In this document: positions 1 to 11,681 of the stretch, piece after piece
Layout: each line of letters begins with the position of its first letter
Numbering within the stretch: the first letter of the stretch is position 1
Virus genome (UHGV): UHGV-0168755
Source: a virus
Strand: one strand, 5' to 3'
Length of the DNA stretch: 11,681 nucleotides
The notes under the pieces: generated by a model
Database searches by the model: none
Told to the model about the DNA's origin: nothing
The model's input: only the letters and a program-made list of their open reading frames with translations
Made by a program: the position numbers and the translations under genes

Positions 1-50
1 TACGAGATGTCTTAGGGTCTCGTGGGCTCGGAGATGTGTATAAGAGACAG
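1..50. other. Illumina Nextera adapter (i7 index plus transposase mosaic end); library artefact, not biological
   Basis: Sequence TACGAGAT-GTCTTAGG-GTCTCGTGGGCTCGG-AGATGTGTATAAGAGACAG matches the Nextera read-2 adapter with the 19-nt Tn5 mosaic end; its exact reverse complement is at the 3' end of the window. Confidence 0.95.
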
Positions 51-591
51 GTAACTGTCCTGACACGTTATAACGGCGGAAGATCCAGTTTAACAGGTCG
101 ATGACCTGTTTCGCACGAAGTGCATTTTCTTCGTACGACAACTGTTCGATACCATCCAGCGTATAGTCGATCATCTGGTACATCTGCCGTTCACCGACTT
201 CGGAAATGATATCGGCTTGTTGGCGAATCATTTCTGTTTCTTCGGTAAGCGACGGTTGACCTTCAACGTGCTGAAGTGAGCGACCGGTATTGAGCAAAGG
301 CGGGATCGTAAAGAGCAGTTTTGAATTATCCGAATCCGAAACAATCTGTAACGGAACGAAAGCGCTCCCTACATAATCCGTCCAGGTATCTTCGTTAAAC
401 GTGCCATCCAACATCCCCGACAATAACGGTAAACCTTGTCGACGGAACATCGATTCAGTAAACACGCTACACACACCCTGGCCCTGTTTAAGCATCTCTT
501 CCATTTCAAGAAGTTTTTCAAACTCAAACTTAGCACGGCCAGAAAGTTCTTCAATGGGTACCCCATTAAATTTTCCCGGTTCTTGATCCAT
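51..591 (-). CDS. hypothetical protein, partial (start at ATG 589-591, C-terminus runs off the insert into the adapter)
   Basis: Own translation of the minus strand gives an open frame MDQEPGKFNGVPIEELSGRAKFEFEKLLEMEEMLKQGQG... with no stop before the adapter. GAGGA-like RBS upstream; the ATG lies 2 nt after the TGA of the upstream gene (594-596). Not in the ORF track because it has no in-window stop. Confidence 0.55.
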
Positions 592-1900: not shown

Positions 1901-2262
1901 TCCAATCCTTTTGGAGCAGGTGTGCTAAGACACCCTCCCATGCTTTCACATGGGCACAGACTATATCATAACCGTAGGTAACATTACCCGTAGGTCTCCC
2001 CCACTTCGCCGCTAAACTAAGCAGCTACTCTACTCGGTTTTACCCTTTCGATAGTCGTTGAACGATTTTCACCGCTGCTGATTATCCATTATCACGACCC
2101 TTAGCATTATTGGTTAGCATAGGTCATCTTACAAATTATTTCTGACTTTCGTCACCCTATCGGGATCGTAAGCTTTAGGAGTTACCAGCAATTCAGGGGA
2201 TACGCACTAGAGGTTTCCCGTCTAGTGGGCCAACATTTAGCATTTGGTGCTTTGATGACACG
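1898..2262 (-). ncRNA. group I self-splicing intron (ORF-less, about 330-400 nt) interrupting the beta' gene; boundaries approximate
   Basis: Read on the minus-strand sense: P4/P5 region GACGGGAAACCUCUAGUGCGUAUCCCCUG (2194-2223), R/P7 5' strand GUUCAACGACUAUC (2050-2063), S/P7 3' strand AUGAUAUAGUCUG (1957-1969), P9 hairpin GCCCAUG-UGAAAG-CAUGGG (1937-1955), then two small hairpins before candidate terminal G at 1898-1900. Beta' homology stops before this and resumes at DFDGD after it. Confidence 0.7.
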
Positions 2263-3606
2263 ATCAGAAATACGCAGAGAACATTGTGTTACATCTGTCA
2301 GTACCGATGCAATAAACAACGTCTGAATAGAAAGCTGAACCAATGTTGGGTTACGTAGAACTTCCAACATTAAACCGAATCCACCGGGGGATTCTTTAAT
2401 CAGCTCATTAATAATTTCATGTACCAACGGTACATACTGCATTGCCGCAAATGCAATGATACGTTCGCACTGCCGTGGTGTATAATCACGACGACCCAGC
2501 TTGTTCTCAATGTGAACGCTCGCCAACGGAACCAACCAACGCCAAGGCGCAATCACTTTCAACGCATCGTGAGGTTCAGAGATAGGAGAGATAGTCACAC
2601 GTCCGCCCCACGGTACGTGTGTTGACCCGAGTTTTGCCCGATAGAACCCAGGTTTACCTTCCATCACTTCCTGACGATGGTCAATATAGAAATACGCAAG
2701 TTGACGATTCGCTTTGATTGCGCGACGAATAATAAATCGCGGATCGATACGACGTGCATTCGTGTACAGCAACGCCACATTTTTTACTGCGTCGATAGCG
2801 CTGGTGTATACGGGATCGATAAAGATACCCTGTCGACGTTCCTCCGTAACGATCAGTTTCGACGAAATAATCGGAAGATGCCTTGGAAAGAATGTGAACG
2901 ATTGCTCTTGAAAGAACTCACGCCATTCTAAGCGTACACGCTCACTCTCATAACGGTTATTTTTCGTTGGTGGATAAATCTCCTTCCAAACTTCCGGGGA
3001 CGTGAGGATATTAAAGACGGTTCGATGATGGTCGATAAAGTTTCGAATACCGCGTTCGAATCCGTGCTCAATGAGTATTCTTTTCACTACCCGAGCTCGT
3101 GTCCCTTCGTCCTTTTCTGGTCGATAGTACGGATCGATTAGCCATAGAAGCAAATCAGAACCGCGCTCTACCGTCACCTTGTTACGATTGAACTTTTTCA
3201 GCTTAGAACCAAAGAAAGCATTGAAGAGAGACCAAAAACGTGGATTGATAAAGTTGCCCATCTCATCGGGAGCACGTAACCAAACTTCGGACGTAATCCG
3301 GTGTTCAGAAACAACGTGTCCACAGTGCGGGCAACGTAGCCCAAGATTGTAACGATGGGTAATAGGTGATTCGCAGGTCAAACTGCAAATAGGAGCCGAG
3401 TTGAGTGTCTCATCAACGATTCGGTTTTGAAGTATCTGGTTAATCATCTCTGACGCTTCGATGGTATCCATCGTTACAGCAACGTCATTGATAATAATCG
3501 GCGGTTTGTAGCCTTTTTCCTCCGCTTCTTGTATACAGTCACGTAACATTTTATCGTGACTAATTAATCGCCCTGAAATCCCGTAATATTCTAGTTTATG
3601 TTCCAC
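2182..3606 (-). CDS. multisubunit RNA polymerase beta'-like N-terminal subunit, exon 1 (ORF as called; the last roughly 20-35 codons before the TAA at 2182 are probably intron read-through)
   Basis: GTG start at 3604-3606 with GAGGA 6 nt upstream. Zinc finger CSLTC-x13-CPHCGHVV (compare E. coli CxC-x12-CEKCGVEV), GGRVTISPI (compare GRSVITVGP) and LRNPTLVQLSIQ (compare NRAPTLHRLGIQ), in the same order as bacterial beta'. Confidence 0.8.
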   Translation of the reverse strand: MEHKLEYYGISGRLISHDKMLRDCIQEAEEKGYKPPIIINDVAVTMDTIEASEMINQILQNRIVDETLNSAPICSLTCESPITHRYNLGLRCPHCGHVVSEHRITSEVWLRAPDEMGNFINPRFWSLFNAFFGSKLKKFNRNKVTVERGSDLLLWLIDPYYRPEKDEGTRARVVKRILIEHGFERGIRNFIDHHRTVFNILTSPEVWKEIYPPTKNNRYESERVRLEWREFFQEQSFTFFPRHLPIISSKLIVTEERRQGIFIDPVYTSAIDAVKNVALLYTNARRIDPRFIIRRAIKANRQLAYFYIDHRQEVMEGKPGFYRAKLGSTHVPWGGRVTISPISEPHDALKVIAPWRWLVPLASVHIENKLGRRDYTPRQCERIIAFAAMQYVPLVHEIINELIKESPGGFGLMLEVLRNPTLVQLSIQTLFIASVLTDVTQCSLRISDRVIKAPNAKCWPTRRETSSAYPLNCW

Positions 3607-3619
3607 GCCGAATCCTCAA

Positions 3620-3662
3620 CAAAAAAAGAGAGGGAAGGGACAGGGGGTTTTCCCCTGTCCCT
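3620..3662 (-). terminator. candidate intrinsic terminator/attenuator between the 615-aa gene and the beta' gene
   Basis: 10-11 bp stem GGGACAGGGG/CCCCTGTCCC (3637-3661) with 5-nt loop, followed on the minus strand by UUCCCUCUCUUUUUUUG. The U-run starts about 9 nt after the stem, so the call is moderate. It abuts the beta' RBS. Confidence 0.45.
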
Positions 3663-3690
3663 CAACTACTGCTTACTACTTACCAACTTA

Positions 3691-5538
3691 TCAGAAAGTC
3701 GGACGCCAGTCAGTTGCAGCGAAGGACATACCGAAATCGCTACCAAATGCGTTCGGGCCGCTACCAGACAGTGCGAAGTTCTCATTACCCGTGTTAACAA
3801 ACACAGAGTGAGTGAGGCTGTTCGCTGCGGTAACACCGTTCACCTGGAAGTTGCAGTTTTCGGTGATGTATTCCACCAGTGCTTTACCGAACATCGGGTT
3901 GATTGCCAGATCAGACGCTTCGCCAGTTACCTGCGGCTGTTTGCTACCGAACATGGACGCAGCCATTTTCAGCAGGTACAGACGCTGGTCACGCGCATTC
4001 AGATAGCGGTGAGAGTAGGACTGTGCACTAATGTAGTCGATCGCATCGCGCTGGTTGTCGCCCACTTTAGTCAGAGCGGAAACCAAGTCCATATCCTGGA
4101 AGCTACGTTTCTGGCTGTTGCTGAAATACTGACCAGAGATGGTCGGGCAACCGGCGATAACAACATGTTTGCACTCAAAGTTGTTGACATTTCCCAGCAT
4201 CGCTTTGAAGCGGGTGCTGAACTTAGTCGCGCCGTTGCTGGCCATGTTATCCAGGATGTTGAACAGGGTATACAGTGCGTTGGTGTTACCCATCCCGATT
4301 TCGCTCAGGAGAGTAGACAGACCACCAATACCGTTACCTGCACGATGGTTCACCACCAGTGCCGCAGTCGGATTAGCGAAAGTATCCAGGCATTTCTCGA
4401 TAACTTCACGGTTACCGTCGATTTTGCTCAGGTCAGGTTTTTCGCTGCCCCATTCTACATACTCCAGAACGCGGGAGAAGCGGCGATCGGTTTTGTTCAG
4501 CGACTGCATGAAACGTTCACGCCATCCGCCGATAGTGGCGATTTGTGCGAACGCGGCCAGTTCAATCAGCTGACGTTCGATAGGTGCCATTGCCCCAGAG
4601 GATTGAGAATCCATCAGAGAAACAACCACTTCGGCTTCCAGCTGACGCAGGTCCTGAGTACCGTTGGTCAGAGTTTGCGGTTTACCTTTATGGCGGAGGT
4701 TGATGTAACCAACACCTGCAACGCTCGGATAATTCTGGAGGCGTTCAGAAGAGAACAGCGTCGGGTTATTATCGTTATTGCCGGTGCGGGAATGGTCAAC
4801 CACAACCATCAGGTCAGCACGTTGTGCAGAACCGTTAACGTCAGTTACAGAACCTTCTTCAACGACACTGACTTGTGCAGTGAAGCGATCAGAGCGGGTC
4901 ATTTTCAGGTAGCCCAGGTAGCCGGAATGACGACCGAAGATACCCAGTGCAATCTGGCCCATGAGCTGGTTAGCCCATTCTTCGTTCATGGTTTTACCCA
5001 GTTCCGGTACGCAGTTCATTACCATGAACTGTACGCTCGGCAGATTGTGCTGAGTTGCAATCTGGTTAGTGATGTTGTTCATCACACCTTCTTGACTGAA
5101 CAGCTGTGCCAGGGTGTAGTAGTTTTCTTTACCGTTGATTTCGTAGAAACGGATGGATTGGCCGTGTTCGAAGAACAGGATACCGTAGAGCCATTCGTTA
5201 TGGTTATCACCAGACGGACCAGCCACATATGCAGCAGAACCCATTTCAGAGTTGATGCCGTCAATGACGCCCCAACGGAAGTTACGCAGGTAGGTGTTCT
5301 TCTCTGCCATCTTCTCAATCAGACTGGTGAACTGAGAAGCAGTGGACACAAAGGACATATACCCAAAAGCTTTATCGAAGGTGGAAATGTTTTTAGACAT
5401 TCCACCAAAAGCGTTGGCCGCATTGGTGTTATCCATAGTAGGAGCTCCCGCACCGCCGAAAGACGGAATTGGATCTGCGGCGGAACCAGCAGCACCAGTC
5501 ACAACGTCGTTTTGATTGTCAATAAACTCTTTAGCCAT
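3691..5538 (-). CDS. highly expressed 615-aa protein; candidate phage-nucleus shell protein (chimallin), alternatively a major virion structural protein
   Basis: ATG start with AAGGA RBS. Codon usage is visibly shifted to E. coli-type optimal codons (CTG, CGT, GGT, ACC, AAC, GAA) compared with neighbours. Gly/Ala-rich flexible N-terminal segment. Lies immediately upstream of, and co-oriented with, the beta' N-terminal subunit gene. Identity is inferred from size and position, not from recognised sequence. Confidence 0.7.
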   Translation of the reverse strand: MAKEFIDNQNDVVTGAAGSAADPIPSFGGAGAPTMDNTNAANAFGGMSKNISTFDKAFGYMSFVSTASQFTSLIEKMAEKNTYLRNFRWGVIDGINSEMGSAAYVAGPSGDNHNEWLYGILFFEHGQSIRFYEINGKENYYTLAQLFSQEGVMNNITNQIATQHNLPSVQFMVMNCVPELGKTMNEEWANQLMGQIALGIFGRHSGYLGYLKMTRSDRFTAQVSVVEEGSVTDVNGSAQRADLMVVVDHSRTGNNDNNPTLFSSERLQNYPSVAGVGYINLRHKGKPQTLTNGTQDLRQLEAEVVVSLMDSQSSGAMAPIERQLIELAAFAQIATIGGWRERFMQSLNKTDRRFSRVLEYVEWGSEKPDLSKIDGNREVIEKCLDTFANPTAALVVNHRAGNGIGGLSTLLSEIGMGNTNALYTLFNILDNMASNGATKFSTRFKAMLGNVNNFECKHVVIAGCPTISGQYFSNSQKRSFQDMDLVSALTKVGDNQRDAIDYISAQSYSHRYLNARDQRLYLLKMAASMFGSKQPQVTGEASDLAINPMFGKALVEYITENCNFQVNGVTAANSLTHSVFVNTGNENFALSGSGPNAFGSDFGMSFAATDWRPTF

Positions 5539-5582
5539 TTTACTTAATCCTTATAAGGTTTAATACAATTGTAGTGTTGGTT

Positions 5583-5612
5583 CACGTAGATAATATCTAG
5601 CTAAGATATTTT
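5583..5612. promoter_or_regulatory. copy 1 of a duplicated 30-bp motif CACGTAGATAATATCTAGCTAAGATATTTT in the divergent intergenic region; candidate promoter/operator
   Basis: Direct repeat with copy 2 (about 26 of 30 identical, 80 bp apart); contains internal inverted repeat ATATCT-N5-AGATAT; lies 45 nt upstream of the 615-aa gene start. Confidence 0.45.
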
Positions 5613-5662
5613 GGAATACACGTAAAACACACATAGCTTAAAATGATTAACTACCGAACCAT

Positions 5663-5693
5663 CACATAGATAATATCATTCTCAGATATTTTT
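5663..5693. promoter_or_regulatory. copy 2 of the duplicated motif CACATAGATAATATCATTCTCAGATATTTTT
   Basis: Same motif as 5583-5612 with inverted half-sites ATATC/GATAT; about 55 nt upstream of the plus-strand gene start at 5747. Confidence 0.45.
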
Positions 5694-5746
5694 CAATGTG
5701 AGTTAGACTGTGACCGTTTCCTATGTGTAACCCCAAGGAGTAAGTC

Positions 5747-6808
5747 ATGTTCAGTCAAGCCGAGTTAAACCAAGCAGCCATAAAGGGTAAATTCGAAGAC
5801 CCTTCCGCTATACAATTGGTCAGTGCCGTAAAAAATAATAATCAGCGCATTCGCAACTATTTAGAGTCCATTCAAACCCGTGTTGTGTCGGGTCATCTGG
5901 TACTCAAAATTTTAGCGGCTATCGGATATGCGGGTGAACCCAGCTACGAAGAGATCGAGTGGGCATGTCGTCGCAAGCTTTCCGATATCGGTAATGCGCT
6001 ACACCTAACTTCTGTGGGGGAGTACGGTCAAGTTTTCAACGGGATCTTTATCGAAGGGCAAGATGAAATTATTTCACTCGTCGCTCGTCCCGTCAATCCT
6101 GAACTGTCTTTTCGTGACTATACACCCGCGGTTTATCTTTATCACGAGTACACGAATCTTAACTGGGGTCTCGGGAACGGCAAACCCCGAGGCATCAGCA
6201 TTATTGAAATCAATCTGGTTGCACTGCTTTGGCAGTACGTTCTTGCAGAACAGTATTACCGAACACAACCCGAACCGATTAACCGTGTTGTTTACGCGCA
6301 ACGTCACATCATTTACCGGATGCTGCCTAGCTACATGAATATCGCTTTTTTAAATATTCATCGCGCTATCGCAGCAGGTAAAGAAGTCGAACCCGAAACA
6401 CCACTTCGTGTTATCCCCACACCGCCATTACGTGAACTTTCAATTAAACACGCAACGCAAGTTTGTAAAGCCCTCCGTGCAGGTAAACCTTTACCTGGGG
6501 TAGTCATGGCACACATTCCCCAGTTCTTTGTTGATCCGACACACCCAACCACCGCGTTAGACCGTATCCTTTTTAAGGACCCCGGTTCAACCATTCAGGG
6601 TAGTTGGCACCGAAACATCGTGAACTGGTATTGGGCGTTGTTCTGCTTACAGTTCGATAACTCGAGCATGAGCAAATACAAATCCAATCTGATGGTACGT
6701 ATAGCCCGATTCGAAGATGCGAAGATACTGGAGAAACTTACACGTTCGGCGAGAAACTATTACCGACACGAGTTAATTTTGCCATTATACCACGCATTAG
6801 AAAATTAA
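5747..6808 (+). CDS. hypothetical protein (353 aa); the only plus-strand gene, monocistronic
   Basis: ATG with AAGGAG RBS at 5735-5740 (6-nt spacer); TAA stop followed by a short hairpin (6815-6829) and a strong terminator (6862-6898). No motif I recognise. Confidence 0.8.
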   Translation: MFSQAELNQAAIKGKFEDPSAIQLVSAVKNNNQRIRNYLESIQTRVVSGHLVLKILAAIGYAGEPSYEEIEWACRRKLSDIGNALHLTSVGEYGQVFNGIFIEGQDEIISLVARPVNPELSFRDYTPAVYLYHEYTNLNWGLGNGKPRGISIIEINLVALLWQYVLAEQYYRTQPEPINRVVYAQRHIIYRMLPSYMNIAFLNIHRAIAAGKEVEPETPLRVIPTPPLRELSIKHATQVCKALRAGKPLPGVVMAHIPQFFVDPTHPTTALDRILFKDPGSTIQGSWHRNIVNWYWALFCLQFDNSSMSKYKSNLMVRIARFEDAKILEKLTRSARNYYRHELILPLYHALEN

Positions 6809-6861
6809 GACTTACTCTCCCCCGGAGAGGACTCTTTCGAATCCTCATATAATAGAGTTAA

Positions 6862-6898
6862 AACGTTGCACTTCGGTGCAACGTTTACTTTCTTTTTA
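6862..6898 (+). terminator. intrinsic terminator between convergent genes, probably bidirectional
   Basis: Perfect 10-bp palindromic stem AACGTTGCAC-TTCG-GTGCAACGTT (6862-6885) followed by TACTTTCTTTTTA on the plus strand; on the minus strand the same stem is followed by TTAACTC. Confidence 0.7.
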
Positions 6899-7040
6899 CC
6901 GTAATTCGTATCCCATGACAAAAACATTCTGTCCGGTTACGTGTGCTAACCACCCGTTTAACGGATCGTCGTAATAGATTTCAAAACTGACAACGGGCTT
7001 TAGTCGGAACCAACGTTCGTTACACGGGATCGAATTAATC

Positions 7041-9353
7041 TCACTCGTCGTCAAAAGCCTCTTCTTCATCATCGTCTTCTTCGTCGTCACCTGCCCTCTC
7101 TGATTTCTTAACGTATTGTACTTCTGCTAATTCCTTGTACAGTTCGTCTTCTTCCTCGACTTTATCGTAGAAATCCGATAACAGTCTCATCCTGTTCTTA
7201 TCCATCATGAACACACCTAAGCATTCCAGAATGTGATAGTAAGGTTCAACTGTAGAGAAAGCCGTGCGACGAATGTCCGCGATAGCGATCAGTTCTTTAG
7301 GAATACCGTAGTTTTCCACCAAATGTTCTGGCAGAATCAACGTTTTGTATTTACGGTAGTTCGTCTCTTCAAACCACGCCGCTGCACCGTTTTTGATAAT
7401 CGGATCTTCTATACTGTCAACCCATTCTTTAATCTTCGTTTTGTTTTCCAACGTTACCGGAAGTTTCACAGCATCGTACGGCGGTTCTTCCAAGTAACCA
7501 AACTTCGGACCAAAGATAGCATTATACATTCGGTGATAGTGATAGTTCTTTTCGTCCTTCTCGTTATAAGCTGCACGCTCTTTAATGTTTGTCGTTTTCA
7601 GATACCCTGGATTACCGGAACGAATGGAATCCATAATCGTGTGCTCGATTTGCGCAACCTTTTCCAGTAATGGAATGATTTCAATTTGGTCACCGCGACC
7701 AACAACCTCACACAACCCCTTAATGGTATTCTTAAACTCCTTCATGATAATCGGCGGAATATTCGACGTACGTAAAGACACGCCTTTTACTTCCAACTCG
7801 GGATCTTTCTTCAACTGACCTTCCTGGCCGGTAATCAATGAGAAGTAGTGTTTTGCTTTGGTAGTTAAGGCAAATGAATCGAACTTAAATTCATTTTTCA
7901 TCGCATAAAGGAATAAACGCTCTTTTGCCACACCGATATTTGCAGACATACTCGCCATCAAATGACGTAAGTGTTGTGTAGCAATATAAATCATTGCATT
8001 GGAAACACGAGTCGCTACTTCACCGTAATGTTTACCGGTGTACCAGATTGCCCACCACTGTGCGGTCATCATGGTAGAGTCAGTATCAGATACCACACCA
8101 ACACGACGAACCACATCTGGCATTCTAGCGATATTAATCGGTAGGTTTTTTGTCGTGAGAATATTACGAATCAGTAACGCGTATTTACCGATTGTTTTCT
8201 GCAAGAACACCGCAGAACGAATCAGCTCTTTATAACCTTCTTGCTGATCCCACGGCAAGGGCTTTTTATTACCGTCAAGTTTCTTAACGTCGCTGAACGC
8301 TTTACCCATCGGTACCACGTCAGTGCGGAACTGTGAGATAATAATCTGCATATCGCCGTCGATGGTCTTCTCAGCAGCAGACCAATCCTCATCACTCCAA
8401 CCGTCGGTATCGACTCGCACTTCAGGAGTAATTAACGCGCCAATAAAATCACGCATGAATTTGTCGTTGTACTTCGCCAGGTGGAAAAAGTCACCCATGT
8501 ATACAAACGCTGCACGCGTTAACGGCGAAACATTACTAACATAATGCTCAACGAACTCCATCCCTTCTTCATTCTTAAAGTAGAAGTCTGCGGAGTAATG
8601 GATAACATCCATTACTTCTTCTACGGTCGGATAATGAAGTTCGTACGTCTCCATACATTTCTTAAAGCTGTTCCAATCGGTTAAAGTACCGATAGATAAG
8701 AAATGATCGATAATTCGTGATGGGGTATCGTAATGACGGTTGCCACCTAACAAACGCTCGTTGCCCGCATTGCCAAACGAGGTTGCAGTACGGCAGGTGG
8801 ACGTCAGCACAGAGTGCGAAGACTGGTTGAAGATAATGGTATACGGAGAAGAGAATGCGCCCGACATCCCGTTGTTCAGTGTCTTAACCGCGTTCTGTTC
8901 GTTCTTTTTGTTGATCTTTAATACTTCATTACCAGCAGCAGCAGCGGCAAACATCTCTTTCTTTACCGCAGCACGTTTCGCTACGTTGGCTGCTGTGAAT
9001 TCCGACAGCTTAGAACGTTTGATGTGTTCTGGAATATAAAAAGTTAACGAAGGTGCAGAGATGATCTGTTTATCAATAACGGTTTTAAATAGCTTATCAA
9101 CAGTTGTATATTTTTCCTCACGATCGCCCGTTTTCTGGTTACGCACCCACATCTTACACACGGGGGACTCGGTGGATAACTCACCGCCCGGTGCAACAAG
9201 TGCATCGACTTCTTGACGGCAAAACTCTAAAGGATATTTTTGTGCTGTCACGTTATGAATGTATAACGCAACCTGTTCACGGTAGGCATCGTTGATATCA
9301 ATATCGCGATGGTATTCGTCTACCGATAAACGAAAAGGAGAATTGTATTCCAC
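7041..9353 (-). CDS. hypothetical 770-aa protein with polyacidic C-terminus (DDEEDDDEEEAFDDE); function unknown
   Basis: GTG start at 9351-9353 with GAGG 6 nt upstream; first gene after the terminator at 9408-9446. Contains VVSDTDS and ALLIRNILT segments that loosely resemble DNA polymerase family B motifs C and B, but no convincing catalytic motif A. Confidence 0.75.
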   Translation of the reverse strand: MEYNSPFRLSVDEYHRDIDINDAYREQVALYIHNVTAQKYPLEFCRQEVDALVAPGGELSTESPVCKMWVRNQKTGDREEKYTTVDKLFKTVIDKQIISAPSLTFYIPEHIKRSKLSEFTAANVAKRAAVKKEMFAAAAAGNEVLKINKKNEQNAVKTLNNGMSGAFSSPYTIIFNQSSHSVLTSTCRTATSFGNAGNERLLGGNRHYDTPSRIIDHFLSIGTLTDWNSFKKCMETYELHYPTVEEVMDVIHYSADFYFKNEEGMEFVEHYVSNVSPLTRAAFVYMGDFFHLAKYNDKFMRDFIGALITPEVRVDTDGWSDEDWSAAEKTIDGDMQIIISQFRTDVVPMGKAFSDVKKLDGNKKPLPWDQQEGYKELIRSAVFLQKTIGKYALLIRNILTTKNLPINIARMPDVVRRVGVVSDTDSTMMTAQWWAIWYTGKHYGEVATRVSNAMIYIATQHLRHLMASMSANIGVAKERLFLYAMKNEFKFDSFALTTKAKHYFSLITGQEGQLKKDPELEVKGVSLRTSNIPPIIMKEFKNTIKGLCEVVGRGDQIEIIPLLEKVAQIEHTIMDSIRSGNPGYLKTTNIKERAAYNEKDEKNYHYHRMYNAIFGPKFGYLEEPPYDAVKLPVTLENKTKIKEWVDSIEDPIIKNGAAAWFEETNYRKYKTLILPEHLVENYGIPKELIAIADIRRTAFSTVEPYYHILECLGVFMMDKNRMRLLSDFYDKVEEEDELYKELAEVQYVKKSERAGDDEEDDDEEEAFDDE

Positions 9354-11352: not shown

Positions 11353-11634
11353 TATAAGACCTTCCCAGCCAGGTTACCCAGCAACAGTTCTACAATCGTT
11401 TGCATATTCGGCGTCAGTTGTTGTAACAAAGCCGGTTCTTCGTATTCTGGGTACTTTACTTGCTCGTACCTTACCAGAAACTCTACCGCACCTGGCTTTT
11501 GTGCACAATAACGCGCACCTATCCACTGGCCGTATCGTGTAAACCAATACGGCTCTGTCGACACCGCCACCACAAAACTCTTCGCCACCTCCTGTGTCGA
11601 TTTTATATATTCCATTGCACGTTCACCATCTAAC
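11352..11634 (-). CDS. hypothetical protein, 5'-partial or starting at ATG about 11613-11615; the ORF-track N-terminus MGSEMCIRDR is adapter-encoded
   Basis: The frame is open from the insert edge. The first 10 codons of the track ORF are translated from the adapter CTGTCTCTTATACACATCTCCGAGCCCAC. A candidate real start, ATG (MEYIKSTQ...), has a weak GGTGA upstream. Confidence 0.5.
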
Positions 11635-11681
11635 CTGTCTCTTATACACATCTCCGAGCCCACGAGACCCTAAGACATCTC
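11635..11681. other. Illumina Nextera adapter (mosaic end CTGTCTCTTATACACATCT + CCGAGCCCACGAGAC + index CCTAAGAC + ATCTC); library artefact
   Basis: Exact reverse complement of positions 1-50; canonical adapter sequence. Position may be off by 1 nt. Confidence 0.95.

What the first reader, a model, noticed from the sequence alone, without database searches (positions are those of the whole stretch)
5539..5746. Duplicated 30-bp palindrome-containing motif in the divergent intergenic region
Two direct copies, CACGTAGATAATATCTAGCTAAGATATTTT (5583-5612) and CACATAGATAATATCATTCTCAGATATTTTT (5663-5693), share about 26 of 30 positions and sit 80 bp apart between the divergently transcribed 615-aa gene and the 353-aa plus-strand gene. 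Each contains inverted half-sites ATATC(T)...(A)GATAT. This looks like a pair of phage promoters or operator sites for a dimeric regulator, possibly driving the highly expressed gene.
Basis: seen in the sequence. Interest (0 to 1): 0.5.

Follow-up and report, generated by a model that had tools for sequence, protein, structure and literature searches.

The report
Tandem early promoters for chimallin gene
The repeated 30-bp motif is two copies of the standard early-gene promoter of phiKZ-like giant phages, pointing leftwards at the gene for the phage-nucleus shell protein; it is real and conserved, but it is a known kind of signal.

Summary
The repeat is real: two direct copies at 5583-5612 and 5663-5692, 25/30 identical, 80 bp apart, never seen in shuffles. 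It is not an operator, and it does not point at the 353-aa gene. Read on the minus strand, both copies match the published early-promoter consensus of phiKZ-related jumbo phages (OBP/N1M2: AWWWWWTTTYARRYAKATATTATYWWADTG) with 3 and 5 mismatches over 33 nt. In the related complete genome of Salmonella phage SPN3US, that consensus finds 23 sites. All 23 lie on the gene-sense strand, 21 are intergenic (P=1.6e-23), and the median distance to a start codon is 52 nt. The same phage in IMG/VR has further co-oriented copies outside the window. The 615-aa gene downstream is a diverged chimallin, the phage-nucleus shell protein (Foldseek E=2e-20 to solved chimallins). It is followed by a PHIKZ055-type non-virion RNA polymerase subunit, as in phiKZ. 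The proximal plus distal promoter pair is conserved upstream of chimallin in 12 relatives from five genera. The ATATC...GATAT dyad occurs in only 4 of 25 family members. The 353-aa gene is a PHIKZ052 homologue and has its own conserved TATG box. Verdict: a new member of a known promoter class, of low to moderate interest. Early timing, vRNAP dependence and start sites are inferred by homology, not measured.

The parts
5583..5615 (-). P1, the proximal early-type promoter. Sense sequence: TCCAAAATATCTTAGCTAGATATTATCTACGTG. It has an A-tract, a TTTYARR-like element, the core and a downstream ..GTG.
   Evidence: 3 mismatches to the 33-nt OBP early-promoter consensus. 3 mismatches over 30 nt with 0/200 shuffles matching. 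SPN3US-derived matrix score 43.4 bits. Orthologous copy present in 12 relatives.
5663..5695 (-). P2, the distal early-type promoter. Sense sequence: TGAAAAATATCTGAGAATGATATTATCTATGTG.
   Evidence: 5 mismatches to the OBP consensus. Matrix score 31.5 bits. Orthologous copy present in 12 relatives, 124-134 nt from the chimallin start codon.
5589..5597 (-). P1 core, GATATTATC (equivalent to phiKZ TATATTAC). By homology it should be centred near -10.
   Evidence: The -10 placement comes from the review PMC7598289 and is inferred here.
5669..5677 (-). P2 core, GATATTATC.
5581..5585 (-). Predicted P1 transcription start, at the conserved G that ends the consensus (complement of C5583). The 5' UTR would be about 45 nt.
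   Evidence: Inference from the consensus register. Not measured.
5661..5665 (-). Predicted P2 transcription start (complement of C5663). The 5' UTR would be about 125 nt and would contain P1.
   Evidence: Inference, as for P1.
3691..5538 (-). Diverged chimallin (ChmA/PhuN) gene, 615 aa, encoding the phage-nucleus shell protein. This is the gene the pair drives. Its Shine-Dalgarno sequence AAGGA is at 5548-5552.
   Evidence: AlphaFold2 model with pLDDT 74 and pTM 0.79. The top 9 Foldseek PDB hits are all chimallin/PhuN, E 2e-20 to 4e-17, TM 0.58-0.72; the next hit has E 0.07. It is 50% identical to SPN3US ACQ60_gp244, which Laughlin 2022 calls a diverged chimallin.
2182..3606 (-). Non-virion RNA polymerase subunit (PHIKZ055 homologue), next gene in the same direction. 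It is probably co-transcribed.
   Evidence: phmmer hit to PDB 7ogp_A (PHIKZ055), E=5.6e-33. phrog_2987. Same gene order as phiKZ gp54-gp55. Co-transcription is inferred.
5747..6808 (+). Divergent 353-aa gene, a PHIKZ052 homologue. It is not driven by P1 or P2.
   Evidence: BLASTP to PHIKZ052 gives E=9e-8 (23% identity over 133 aa), with similar length and the same position and opposite strand relative to chimallin. phrog_3938, unknown function.
5720..5727 (+). Conserved CCTATGTG box (TATG at 5722-5725), 22-25 nt upstream of the 353-aa start codon. It is a candidate non-virion-RNAP (phiKZ late/middle-like) start site for that gene.
   Evidence: The block ACATAGGAA is invariant in the 7-phage alignment, and a TATG at the same distance is present in six more distant relatives. 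phiKZ late promoters are T-3 A T G+1. TATG and TTTAC-N15-TATG are enriched upstream of SPN3US genes. Its function here is inferred.

Best explanation
The two repeats are tandem copies of the phage's own early-class promoter. This is the class that phiKZ-like jumbo phages (Chimalliviridae) use for transcription by the RNA polymerase carried in the virion. Both copies are oriented on the window's minus strand. Each has an A/T tract, a TTTYARR-like element, the core (K)ATATTAT(C) expected about 10 nt upstream of the start, and a downstream ..GTG where transcription should begin. The predicted starts are near 5583 for P1 (5' UTR about 45 nt) and near 5663 for P2 (5' UTR about 125 nt). Together they drive the 615-aa chimallin gene, which encodes the phage-nucleus shell protein, and probably the adjacent non-virion RNA polymerase subunit gene. 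Both products are needed immediately after infection. The 353-aa gene on the other side is a PHIKZ052 homologue and has its own conserved TATG-type start-site box. Shown here: the sequence match to the published consensus, the orientation, the genome-wide association with gene starts in a relative, conservation of the pair, and the identity of the flanking genes. Inferred by homology: early timing, dependence on the virion polymerase, and the exact start sites.
For: (1) Published consensus. Lewis et al. 2020 (PMC7058600, Table 2) list predicted early promoters as OBP BSHAWWWWWTTTYARRYAKATATTATYWWADTG, N1M2, 201phi2-1 ...TATATTACDWHDGTG, EL, and phiKZ TATATTAC. The minus strand of the window matches the OBP consensus at exactly the two repeat positions, with 3 and 5 mismatches over 33 nt and no other hit on either strand. 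The tool scan gives 1 hit at 3 mismatches or fewer, against 0 in 200 shuffles. (2) Genome-wide test in SPN3US using that independent consensus: 23 hits, all 23 on the strand of the downstream gene, and 21/23 with the core intergenic although only 6.4% of the genome is intergenic (binomial P=1.6e-23). The median gap to the next start codon is 52 nt. None of the first downstream genes is annotated as a virion protein. They include chimallin and RNA polymerase subunit genes that, by coordinates, are not among the five virion subunits and so are read as non-virion. (3) Same phage: in 22 kb of two IMG/VR contigs whose chimallin is 99% identical, there are 5 matrix hits, all on the sense strand, and three lie outside the window. 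(4) Conservation: the P1 and P2 pair is found upstream of chimallin in all 12 relatives examined, which belong to Seoulvirus, Erskinevirus, Machinavirus, Wellingtonvirus and Derbicusvirus. The distances to the ATG are 41-51 nt and 128-134 nt in those relatives and 44 and 124 nt here. (5) phiKZ control: AAAAAATTTGAGATTTATATTACTAAATTG lies on the sense strand 65 nt upstream of PHIKZ054, the nuclear shell protein gene. Wicke 2020 mapped a primary start site with the early motif for that gene. (6) Flanking genes: chimallin fold and a PHIKZ055 homologue.
Against: There are no transcript 5' ends for this phage or any SPN3US-like phage, so the start sites, timing and polymerase are inferred. The core GATA(T/A)TATC is itself palindromic, so the orientation rests on the flanks and on the genome-wide statistics. 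The OBP and N1M2 consensus sequences are themselves bioinformatic predictions; only the phiKZ, 201phi2-1 and AR9 motifs have start-site mapping behind them. Two of the 23 SPN3US sites lie inside annotated genes. Why two copies are kept, and whether both fire, is unknown. Only about 22 kb of this phage's roughly 220-kb genome was scanned.
Confidence: 0.82

Rival explanations
1. The motif works in the plus-strand orientation. On this view it acts as one or two promoters for the 353-aa gene.
For: The core GATAATATC is a 9-bp palindrome, so the core alone can be read either way. Copy 2 ends 54 nt upstream of the 353-aa start codon. In SPN3US, 6 of the 23 sites sit at divergent junctions where a gene also lies on the other side. 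Wellington gives a weak reverse-strand matrix hit of 10.2 bits at P2.
Against: 17 of the 23 SPN3US sites have no gene on the other side. Requiring all 23 to sit on the 12.5% minority gene strand has a probability of about 1e-21. Plus-strand matrix scores in the window are below 4 bits. The asymmetric flanks match the published sense-strand consensus only on the minus strand. The 353-aa gene has its own conserved TATG box.
Confidence: 0.05
2. The repeats are operator sites for a dimeric DNA-binding regulator that recognises the inverted half-sites ATATC(T)...(A)GATAT. Such sites might overlap the promoters.
For: Both window copies contain a 6-7-bp inverted repeat, and the P1 core region TAGATATTATCTA is a 13-bp palindrome. 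SPN3US encodes an HTH protein downstream of one such site.
Against: The dyad ATATC N3-9 GATAT is present in only 4 of 25 family members. Several members (TATATATTACYT type) have no dyad at all. The half-site is not conserved in the orthologous P1 of SPN3US or in either copy of phiEaH2. All copies share one orientation, which a symmetric operator does not require. The conserved part is about 33 nt and asymmetric.
Confidence: 0.05
3. The repeats are host sigma-70 promoters, with the -10-like hexamers GATAAT or TATTAT, used before the phage polymerases take over.
For: One sigma-70-like match on the plus strand: TTAACT N16 GATAAT, 9/12, at 5647-5674.
Against: One match equals the shuffle expectation of 1.1. 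The -35-like hexamer is not conserved in SPN3US or phiEaH2. Conservation extends far beyond the two hexamers. phiKZ-type phages transcribe independently of the host polymerase (reviewed in PMC7598289).
Confidence: 0.03
4. The element has no role in transcription. On this view it is a set of iterons at a replication origin, a packaging signal, or a small RNA or hairpin element.
For: It consists of direct repeats in an AT-rich (39-41% GC) divergent intergenic region next to replication genes.
Against: About 23 dispersed copies sit upstream of genes across a related genome. There is no Rfam match and no terminator-like hairpin. The copies are 80-93 bp apart and occur as only two per locus.
Confidence: 0.02

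Closest known systems
Predicted early promoters of Pseudomonas phage OBP and Klebsiella phage N1M2 (Cornelissen 2012; Lewis 2020, PMC7058600)
   Same: The architecture and sequence are nearly the same: A/T tract, TTTYARR, YAKATATTATY, WWADTG. P1 matches 30/33 and P2 28/33 positions of the OBP consensus. Both families have tens of copies per genome, upstream of non-structural operons that include RNA polymerase subunit genes.
   Different: The phage lineage is different (SPN3US-like enterobacterial phage). In this clade the spacer just before the core is usually AGATAG or ...TAG. The OBP and N1M2 motifs are predictions without start-site mapping.
phiKZ early promoters (TATATTAC; Ceyssens 2014, Wicke 2020), including the one upstream of PHIKZ054
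   Same: The core ATATTA is the same, with a W-rich tract and TTTGAG upstream and ..TTG/GTG downstream. It has the same place in the genome, on the sense strand upstream of the nuclear shell gene, which is followed by the gp55-type polymerase subunit. phiKZ gp54 also has two start sites. The phiKZ promoters are experimentally early and used by the virion polymerase.
   Different: In phiKZ the second gp54 start site carries a middle-type motif, whereas here both copies are early-type. phiKZ has an extra gene (gp53) between gp52 and gp54. Sequence identity of P1 to the phiKZ gp54 promoter is 19/30.
201phi2-1 early promoters (ONT-cappable-seq, PMC11512511)
   Same: An AT-rich motif about 10 bp upstream of mapped start sites, with conservation around -10, -20 and -30. 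The consensus is ...TTTRARR.BTATATTACDWHDGTG.
   Different: Only six were mapped there, all upstream of hypothetical genes, and no early promoter was found next to every polymerase subunit gene.
AR9 early promoters and N4 virion-polymerase promoters
   Same: Both are promoters for a polymerase delivered with the DNA that serve the first wave of genes.
   Different: AR9 has its own consensus on uracil-containing DNA. N4 virion polymerase recognises a DNA hairpin, whereas here the dyad is not conserved and no hairpin is required.

Membership tests
phiKZ-like (Chimalliviridae) early / virion-RNAP promoters | Sequence: an AT-rich core (K)ATATTA(Y), flanked by an upstream W-tract plus TTTYARR and a downstream WWADTG | tested here: met
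   P1 has 3 and P2 has 5 mismatches over the 33-nt OBP consensus, on the minus strand only. 0 of 200 shuffles match. The phiKZ gp54 promoter aligns in the same register.
phiKZ-like (Chimalliviridae) early / virion-RNAP promoters | Many copies per genome, intergenic, co-oriented with and shortly upstream of operons | tested here: met
   SPN3US: 23 sites, 23/23 co-oriented, 21/23 intergenic (P=1.6e-23), median 52 nt to the start codon. Same phage: 5 co-oriented sites in 22 kb. The full genome of this phage was not scanned.
phiKZ-like (Chimalliviridae) early / virion-RNAP promoters | The phage encodes multisubunit virion and non-virion RNA polymerases | tested here: inconclusive
   A non-virion subunit (PHIKZ055 homologue) is in the window. 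Virion subunits are outside the window. Relatives carry several RNAP beta-subunit genes, and SPN3US virion subunits are documented in the literature.
phiKZ-like (Chimalliviridae) early / virion-RNAP promoters | Serves early, non-structural genes | tested here: met
   The downstream genes here are chimallin and a non-virion RNAP subunit. None of the first genes downstream of the 23 SPN3US sites is annotated as a virion protein. 'Early' itself is inferred from gene function and homology.
phiKZ-like (Chimalliviridae) early / virion-RNAP promoters | Transcription starts about 7-10 nt downstream of the core, within minutes of infection, independent of host RNAP | not testable with these tools
   No transcriptome is available for this phage, and none was found for SPN3US-like phages.
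Palindromic operator for a dimeric regulator | Dyad symmetry conserved among copies and orthologues | tested here: not met
   ATATC N3-9 GATAT occurs in 4 of 25 copies, and several copies have no inverted repeat of 4 bp or more. The half-site is not conserved in SPN3US P1 or in phiEaH2.
Palindromic operator for a dimeric regulator | Function does not depend on orientation | tested here: not met
   All 23 SPN3US copies, and all 5 copies in this phage, have the same orientation relative to the downstream gene.
Bacterial sigma-70 promoter | -35 and -10 hexamers at 16-18 nt spacing, above chance and conserved | tested here: not met
   One 9/12 match against 1.1 expected. The -35-like hexamer is not conserved in relatives.
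Chimallin (ChmA/PhuN) - for the 615-aa gene product | Chimallin fold over most of the chain, with disordered N- and C-terminal segments | tested here: met
   Foldseek: the top 9 PDB hits are all chimallin (7sqq, 7sqt, 8fne and others), E 2e-20 to 4e-17, TM 0.58-0.72, 541-598 aligned columns. Residues 1-64 and 574-615 have low confidence. Sequence-only searches fail, in line with the 10% identity reported for the SPN3US homologue.

The most novel reading that the evidence does not exclude
The conserved pair may be more than simple redundancy. A fixed proximal/distal pair of early promoters, about 45 and 125 nt from the chimallin start codon, has been kept across at least five genera. In this lineage it appears to have been homogenised by gene conversion. 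P2's upstream A-tract overlaps, back to back, the T-rich upstream part of the TATG-type promoter of the divergent PHIKZ052-like gene. This could form a temporal switch: very early firing by the virion polymerase boosts shell-protein output, and the module later hands over to, or interferes with, non-virion polymerase transcription in both directions. This would resemble the early-plus-middle start sites of phiKZ gp54.
Probability: 0.2. Interest if true: 0.4.

Novelty: new member of a known kind. Interest (0 to 1): 0.22.

Why it matters
It assigns direction and a target gene to a conspicuous repeat. The pair drives the chimallin and non-virion polymerase genes, the first things a nucleus-forming phage must make. 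It also gives a ready consensus (about 23 sites in SPN3US) for annotating early operons in SPN3US-like phages and metagenomic relatives, for which the text searches of the held literature found no promoter map. The strictly conserved double promoter upstream of chimallin is a small, testable point about how the supply of shell protein is secured. No new mechanism or class of element is implied.

Tried and rejected
(1) Scanning IMG/VR for further copies in this phage. I used 22-kb loci around the chimallin gene instead.
(2) Sequence-only identification of the 615-aa protein. phmmer against PDB, Pfam and a 16-sequence profile against PDB all found nothing. Structure prediction plus Foldseek settled it. 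Some homologues carry a precomputed PF25677 hit, but the local Pfam copy did not reproduce it.
(3) A literature search for the motif as a text string found only unrelated primers. Ceyssens 2014 and Cornelissen 2012 are not held. No SPN3US transcriptome or time course was found.
(4) I first read the SPN3US copies as sitting on the 'wrong' strand, 16 minus versus 1 plus for ATAATATC, and considered antisense promoters. I rejected this once the reverse complement matched the published sense-strand consensus and sat 25-93 nt upstream of plus-strand genes.
(5) Hairpin or terminator, known RNA family, and sigma-70 promoter readings were all negative or at chance level.
(6) A strict TTTAC-N15-TATG (middle-like) motif was not found in the window. 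The TATG box upstream of the 353-aa gene therefore remains only a lead.

Full report
OBSERVATION. The sequence is as described. CACGTAGATAATATCTAGCTAAGATATTTT lies at 5583-5612 and CACATAGATAATATCATTCTCAGATATTTT at 5663-5692. The two copies are 25/30 identical. The repeat finder extends them to 36 nt (5582-5617 / 5662-5697) at 81% identity, 80 bp apart. A degenerate pattern covering both copies matches nowhere else in the window, and none of 200 dinucleotide shuffles gave any match. The exact 9-mer GATAATATC occurs only at these two places. The region is the 208-bp spacer between a 615-aa minus-strand gene (3691-5538) and the only plus-strand gene of the window (5747-6808, 353 aa). Its GC content is 39-41%, against about 45-52% in the flanks.

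WHAT THE WINDOW IS. The window is a fragment of a jumbo phage related to Salmonella phage SPN3US and the Erwinia Erskinevirus phages, at about 75% DNA identity in the best-conserved genes. It encodes a DNA polymerase and an RNA polymerase beta-type subunit. Both ends of the window carry a 49-nt Nextera adapter as a perfect inverted repeat (I1), which is an assembly artefact. Two IMG/VR contigs of 220,786 and 225,000 bp encode a 99% identical 615-aa protein and represent the same phage.

CONSERVATION. Both copies are conserved in SPN3US and phiEaH2. An alignment of the spacer from seven phages shows two conserved blocks around an invariant GATATTAT.

ORIENTATION AND IDENTITY. In the complete SPN3US genome (fetched), ATAATATC occurs 16 times on the minus strand and once on the plus strand, although 231 of 264 genes are on the plus strand. 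Read as the reverse complement, the copies sit a few tens of nt upstream of plus-strand genes.

Lewis et al. 2020 (PMC7058600, Table 2) list the predicted early promoters of phiKZ-related phages. They were derived from the 100 bp upstream of each ORF:
- OBP: BSHAWWWWWTTTYARRYAKATATTATYWWADTG
- N1M2: TBYAWWWWWTTTCARRYAKATATTATYWAAGTGWA
- 201phi2-1: ...TTTRARR.BTATATTACDWHDGTG
- EL: WTTTYAAACCTACATTATY
- phiKZ: TATATTAC

The reverse complement of window copy 1, TCCAAAATATCTTAGCTAGATATTATCTACGTG, differs from the 33-nt OBP consensus at 3 positions, and copy 2 differs at 5. There are no other hits with 6 mismatches or fewer on either strand of the window. The tool's own scan gives one hit with 3 mismatches or fewer, against none in 200 shuffles.

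GENOME-WIDE TEST. I used the published OBP consensus as a query that is independent of this window. SPN3US has 23 hits with 6 mismatches or fewer, all on the plus strand. The core is intergenic in 21 of the 23, although only 6.4% of the genome is intergenic (binomial P=1.6e-23). The median distance from the last consensus base to the next plus-strand start codon is 52 nt, with a range of 25-260. The opposite reading, in which the motif drives minus-strand genes, would need all 23 sites to fall on the 12.5% minority gene strand, and 17 of them would have no gene to drive.

The first downstream genes are hypothetical proteins, an HTH protein, a transglycosylase, the chimallin homologue, and RNA polymerase subunit genes (29014-33356) that, by their coordinates, are not among the five virion subunits and so are read as non-virion. 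None is annotated as a virion protein. A subset of sites carries TATATATTAC, which is the phiKZ core itself.

A position weight matrix built only from these SPN3US sites scores the two window copies at 43.4 and 31.5 bits on the minus strand. The third-best site scores 3.9 bits, and the maximum in 300 dinucleotide shuffles was 15.7. In 22 kb of the same phage (L134, L135) there are five hits, all on the chimallin-sense strand. Three lie outside the window. Two of these are in intergenic spacers upstream of genes (positions corresponding to SPN3US sites 7377 and 23797). One weaker hit lies inside a gene, at the position matching the SPN3US intragenic site 25213.

FLANKING GENES. Sequence searches do not identify the 615-aa protein. 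An AlphaFold2 model (pLDDT 74, pTM 0.79) matches only chimallin/PhuN structures in the PDB. These are 201phi2-1, Goslar and phiPA3, with E 2e-20 to 4e-17 and TM 0.58-0.72; the next hit has E 0.07. Its SPN3US homologue (50% identity) is the 617-aa RefSeq ACQ60_gp244. I take this to be the 'diverged chimallin homologue (gp244)' of Laughlin et al. 2022. The identification by locus tag and size is my inference.

The next gene (2182-3606) is a homologue of PHIKZ055, a subunit of the phiKZ non-virion RNA polymerase (PDB 7ogp_A, E=5.6e-33). The 353-aa protein is weakly but specifically similar to PHIKZ052 (E=9e-8 in a pairwise comparison). The phiKZ record notes PHIKZ052 as a structural head protein. 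The order DNA polymerase ... gp52 (opposite strand) ... shell protein - gp55 is the same in phiKZ.

In phiKZ the sequence AAAAAATTTGAGATTTATATTACTAAATTG lies on the sense strand 65 nt upstream of the shell gene. Wicke et al. 2020 mapped a primary start site with the early motif and a secondary one with the middle motif for PHIKZ054.

THE PAIR IS OLD. I examined twelve relatives: SPN3US, SPAsTU, pEa_SNUABM_29, phiEaH2, Asesino, the IMG/VR strain, Huxley, ChrisDB, Wellington, Phobos, CR5 and EarlPhillipIV. Chimallin identity to the window protein falls as low as 38%. In every one, the spacer upstream of chimallin holds exactly two sense-strand hits. One is 41-51 nt from the start codon and the other 128-134 nt. 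In the window the distances are 44 and 124 nt.

The two copies are more alike in this phage (29/36; 33/36 in strain L134) than in relatives (23-27/36). In L134 the spacer of P2 is identical to that of P1. The 80-bp spacing, against 91-93 bp in close relatives, reflects the absence here of a small hairpin (AAGC GACG GCTT) that those relatives carry between the promoters.

THE PALINDROME. The dyad ATATC N3-9 GATAT is present in 4 of 25 family members, and several members have no inverted repeat at all. It arises where the W-rich upstream element happens to read AATATC. The core GATATTATC is a palindrome in one subtype, but the TATATATTACYT subtype and the phiKZ core are not palindromic. No terminator-like hairpin, no Rfam family, and no above-chance sigma-70 match is present.

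MECHANISM. By homology with phiKZ and 201phi2-1, the AT-rich core lies about 10 nt upstream of mapped early start sites and the virion polymerase is responsible. On that basis P1 and P2 should be recognised by the polymerase injected with the DNA. Initiation should occur near the conserved G that ends the consensus, at window minus-strand positions 5583 and 5663. The resulting chimallin mRNAs would have 5' UTRs of about 45 and 125 nt and probably continue into the polymerase subunit gene. The sequence match, orientation, distribution, conservation and gene identities are shown here. Timing, polymerase and start sites are inferred.

THE OTHER GENE. Upstream of the 353-aa gene the block GACTGTGAC...TTCCTATGTG is conserved. 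A TATG 21-25 nt before the start codon is present in all relatives, including Derbicusvirus. phiKZ late promoters consist of TATG with the G as the start. In SPN3US, TATG-containing words are enriched 3-4-fold upstream of genes. The composite TTTAC-N15-TATG occurs 16 times, 15 of them on the plus strand and 11 intergenic. This resembles the phiKZ middle motif, which is TAC(T) about 22 nt upstream of the start. The window has only a loose version, TTAGAC-N13-TATG, so this remains a lead and not a finding.

VERDICT. It is a new member of a known promoter class. The conserved duplication upstream of chimallin is a modest new detail.

Noticed in passing
window 4-52 and 11633-11681: A perfect 49-nt inverted repeat at the two ends of the window contains the Nextera transposase adapter (CTGTCTCTTATACACATCT...). 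It also hits many unrelated phage records at their ends. This is an untrimmed-adapter assembly artefact, not phage termini.
   Followed up: partly
window 5720-5727 (+); SPN3US L007-L011: A conserved CCTATGTG box (TATG at 5722-5725) lies 22-25 nt upstream of the 353-aa gene in all 13 phages. In SPN3US a second motif class, AAWTTTAC-N15-TATG, occurs 16 times (15 on the plus strand, 11 intergenic), often next to an early-type site. It is probably the middle/late promoter class of the non-virion polymerase in this clade.
   Followed up: partly
window 5630-5636 (minus strand reads CTATGTG): A TATGTG between P2 and P1, in the chimallin-sense direction, is invariant in the 7-phage alignment and present in 9 of 13 phages overall. 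It may be a third, TATG-type start for chimallin, like the secondary middle-type start of phiKZ gp54.
   Followed up: partly
L001 (SPN3US) about 2945-2965 and the equivalent in phiEaH2, Asesino, SPAsTU, pEa29, Huxley, Wellington, ChrisDB: A small hairpin, (R)AAGC-GACG-GCTT(Y), sits between the two promoters in these relatives. There is one apparent compensatory change (TAAGC..GCTTA versus CAAGC..GCTTG). It is absent from the window's phage, which accounts for the 80-bp versus 91-93-bp spacing. Its function is unknown.
   Followed up: partly
window 5663-5695 versus L134 9839-9888 and L135 9839-9888: Strains of the same phage differ in the P2 spacer: GAGAATG here, GAGAAAG in L135, and TAGCTAG in L134, the last being identical to P1. 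This suggests gene conversion between the two promoter copies.
   Followed up: partly
window 3598-5547 (+): A 649-aa open reading frame runs antisense across the whole chimallin gene. The minus-strand frame is the real gene (PHROG hit and chimallin fold), so this looks like a shadow ORF. Its length is nonetheless unusual.
   Followed up: no
window 2182-9353; L142 (phiKZ 40.5-49.2 kb): The gene order is conserved between this phage and phiKZ despite near-zero sequence identity of chimallin. The order is DNA polymerase, a PHIKZ052-like gene on the opposite strand, chimallin, then a PHIKZ055-type polymerase subunit. The 353-aa protein is therefore probably a virion (head) protein.
   Followed up: partly
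SPN3US 25213-25245 (inside ACQ60_gp236) and L134 19761-19810: An early-type promoter copy lies inside a coding sequence, about 260 nt upstream of the next gene. It is conserved in position between SPN3US and the window's phage, so it is likely a functional internal promoter.
   Followed up: partly
SPN3US 72473-72703: There is a second tandem pair of early-type sites, 198 bp apart with a TTTAC-N15-TATG site between them. It sits in the 333-bp spacer just downstream of the major head protein gene and upstream of ACQ60_gp190.
   Followed up: no
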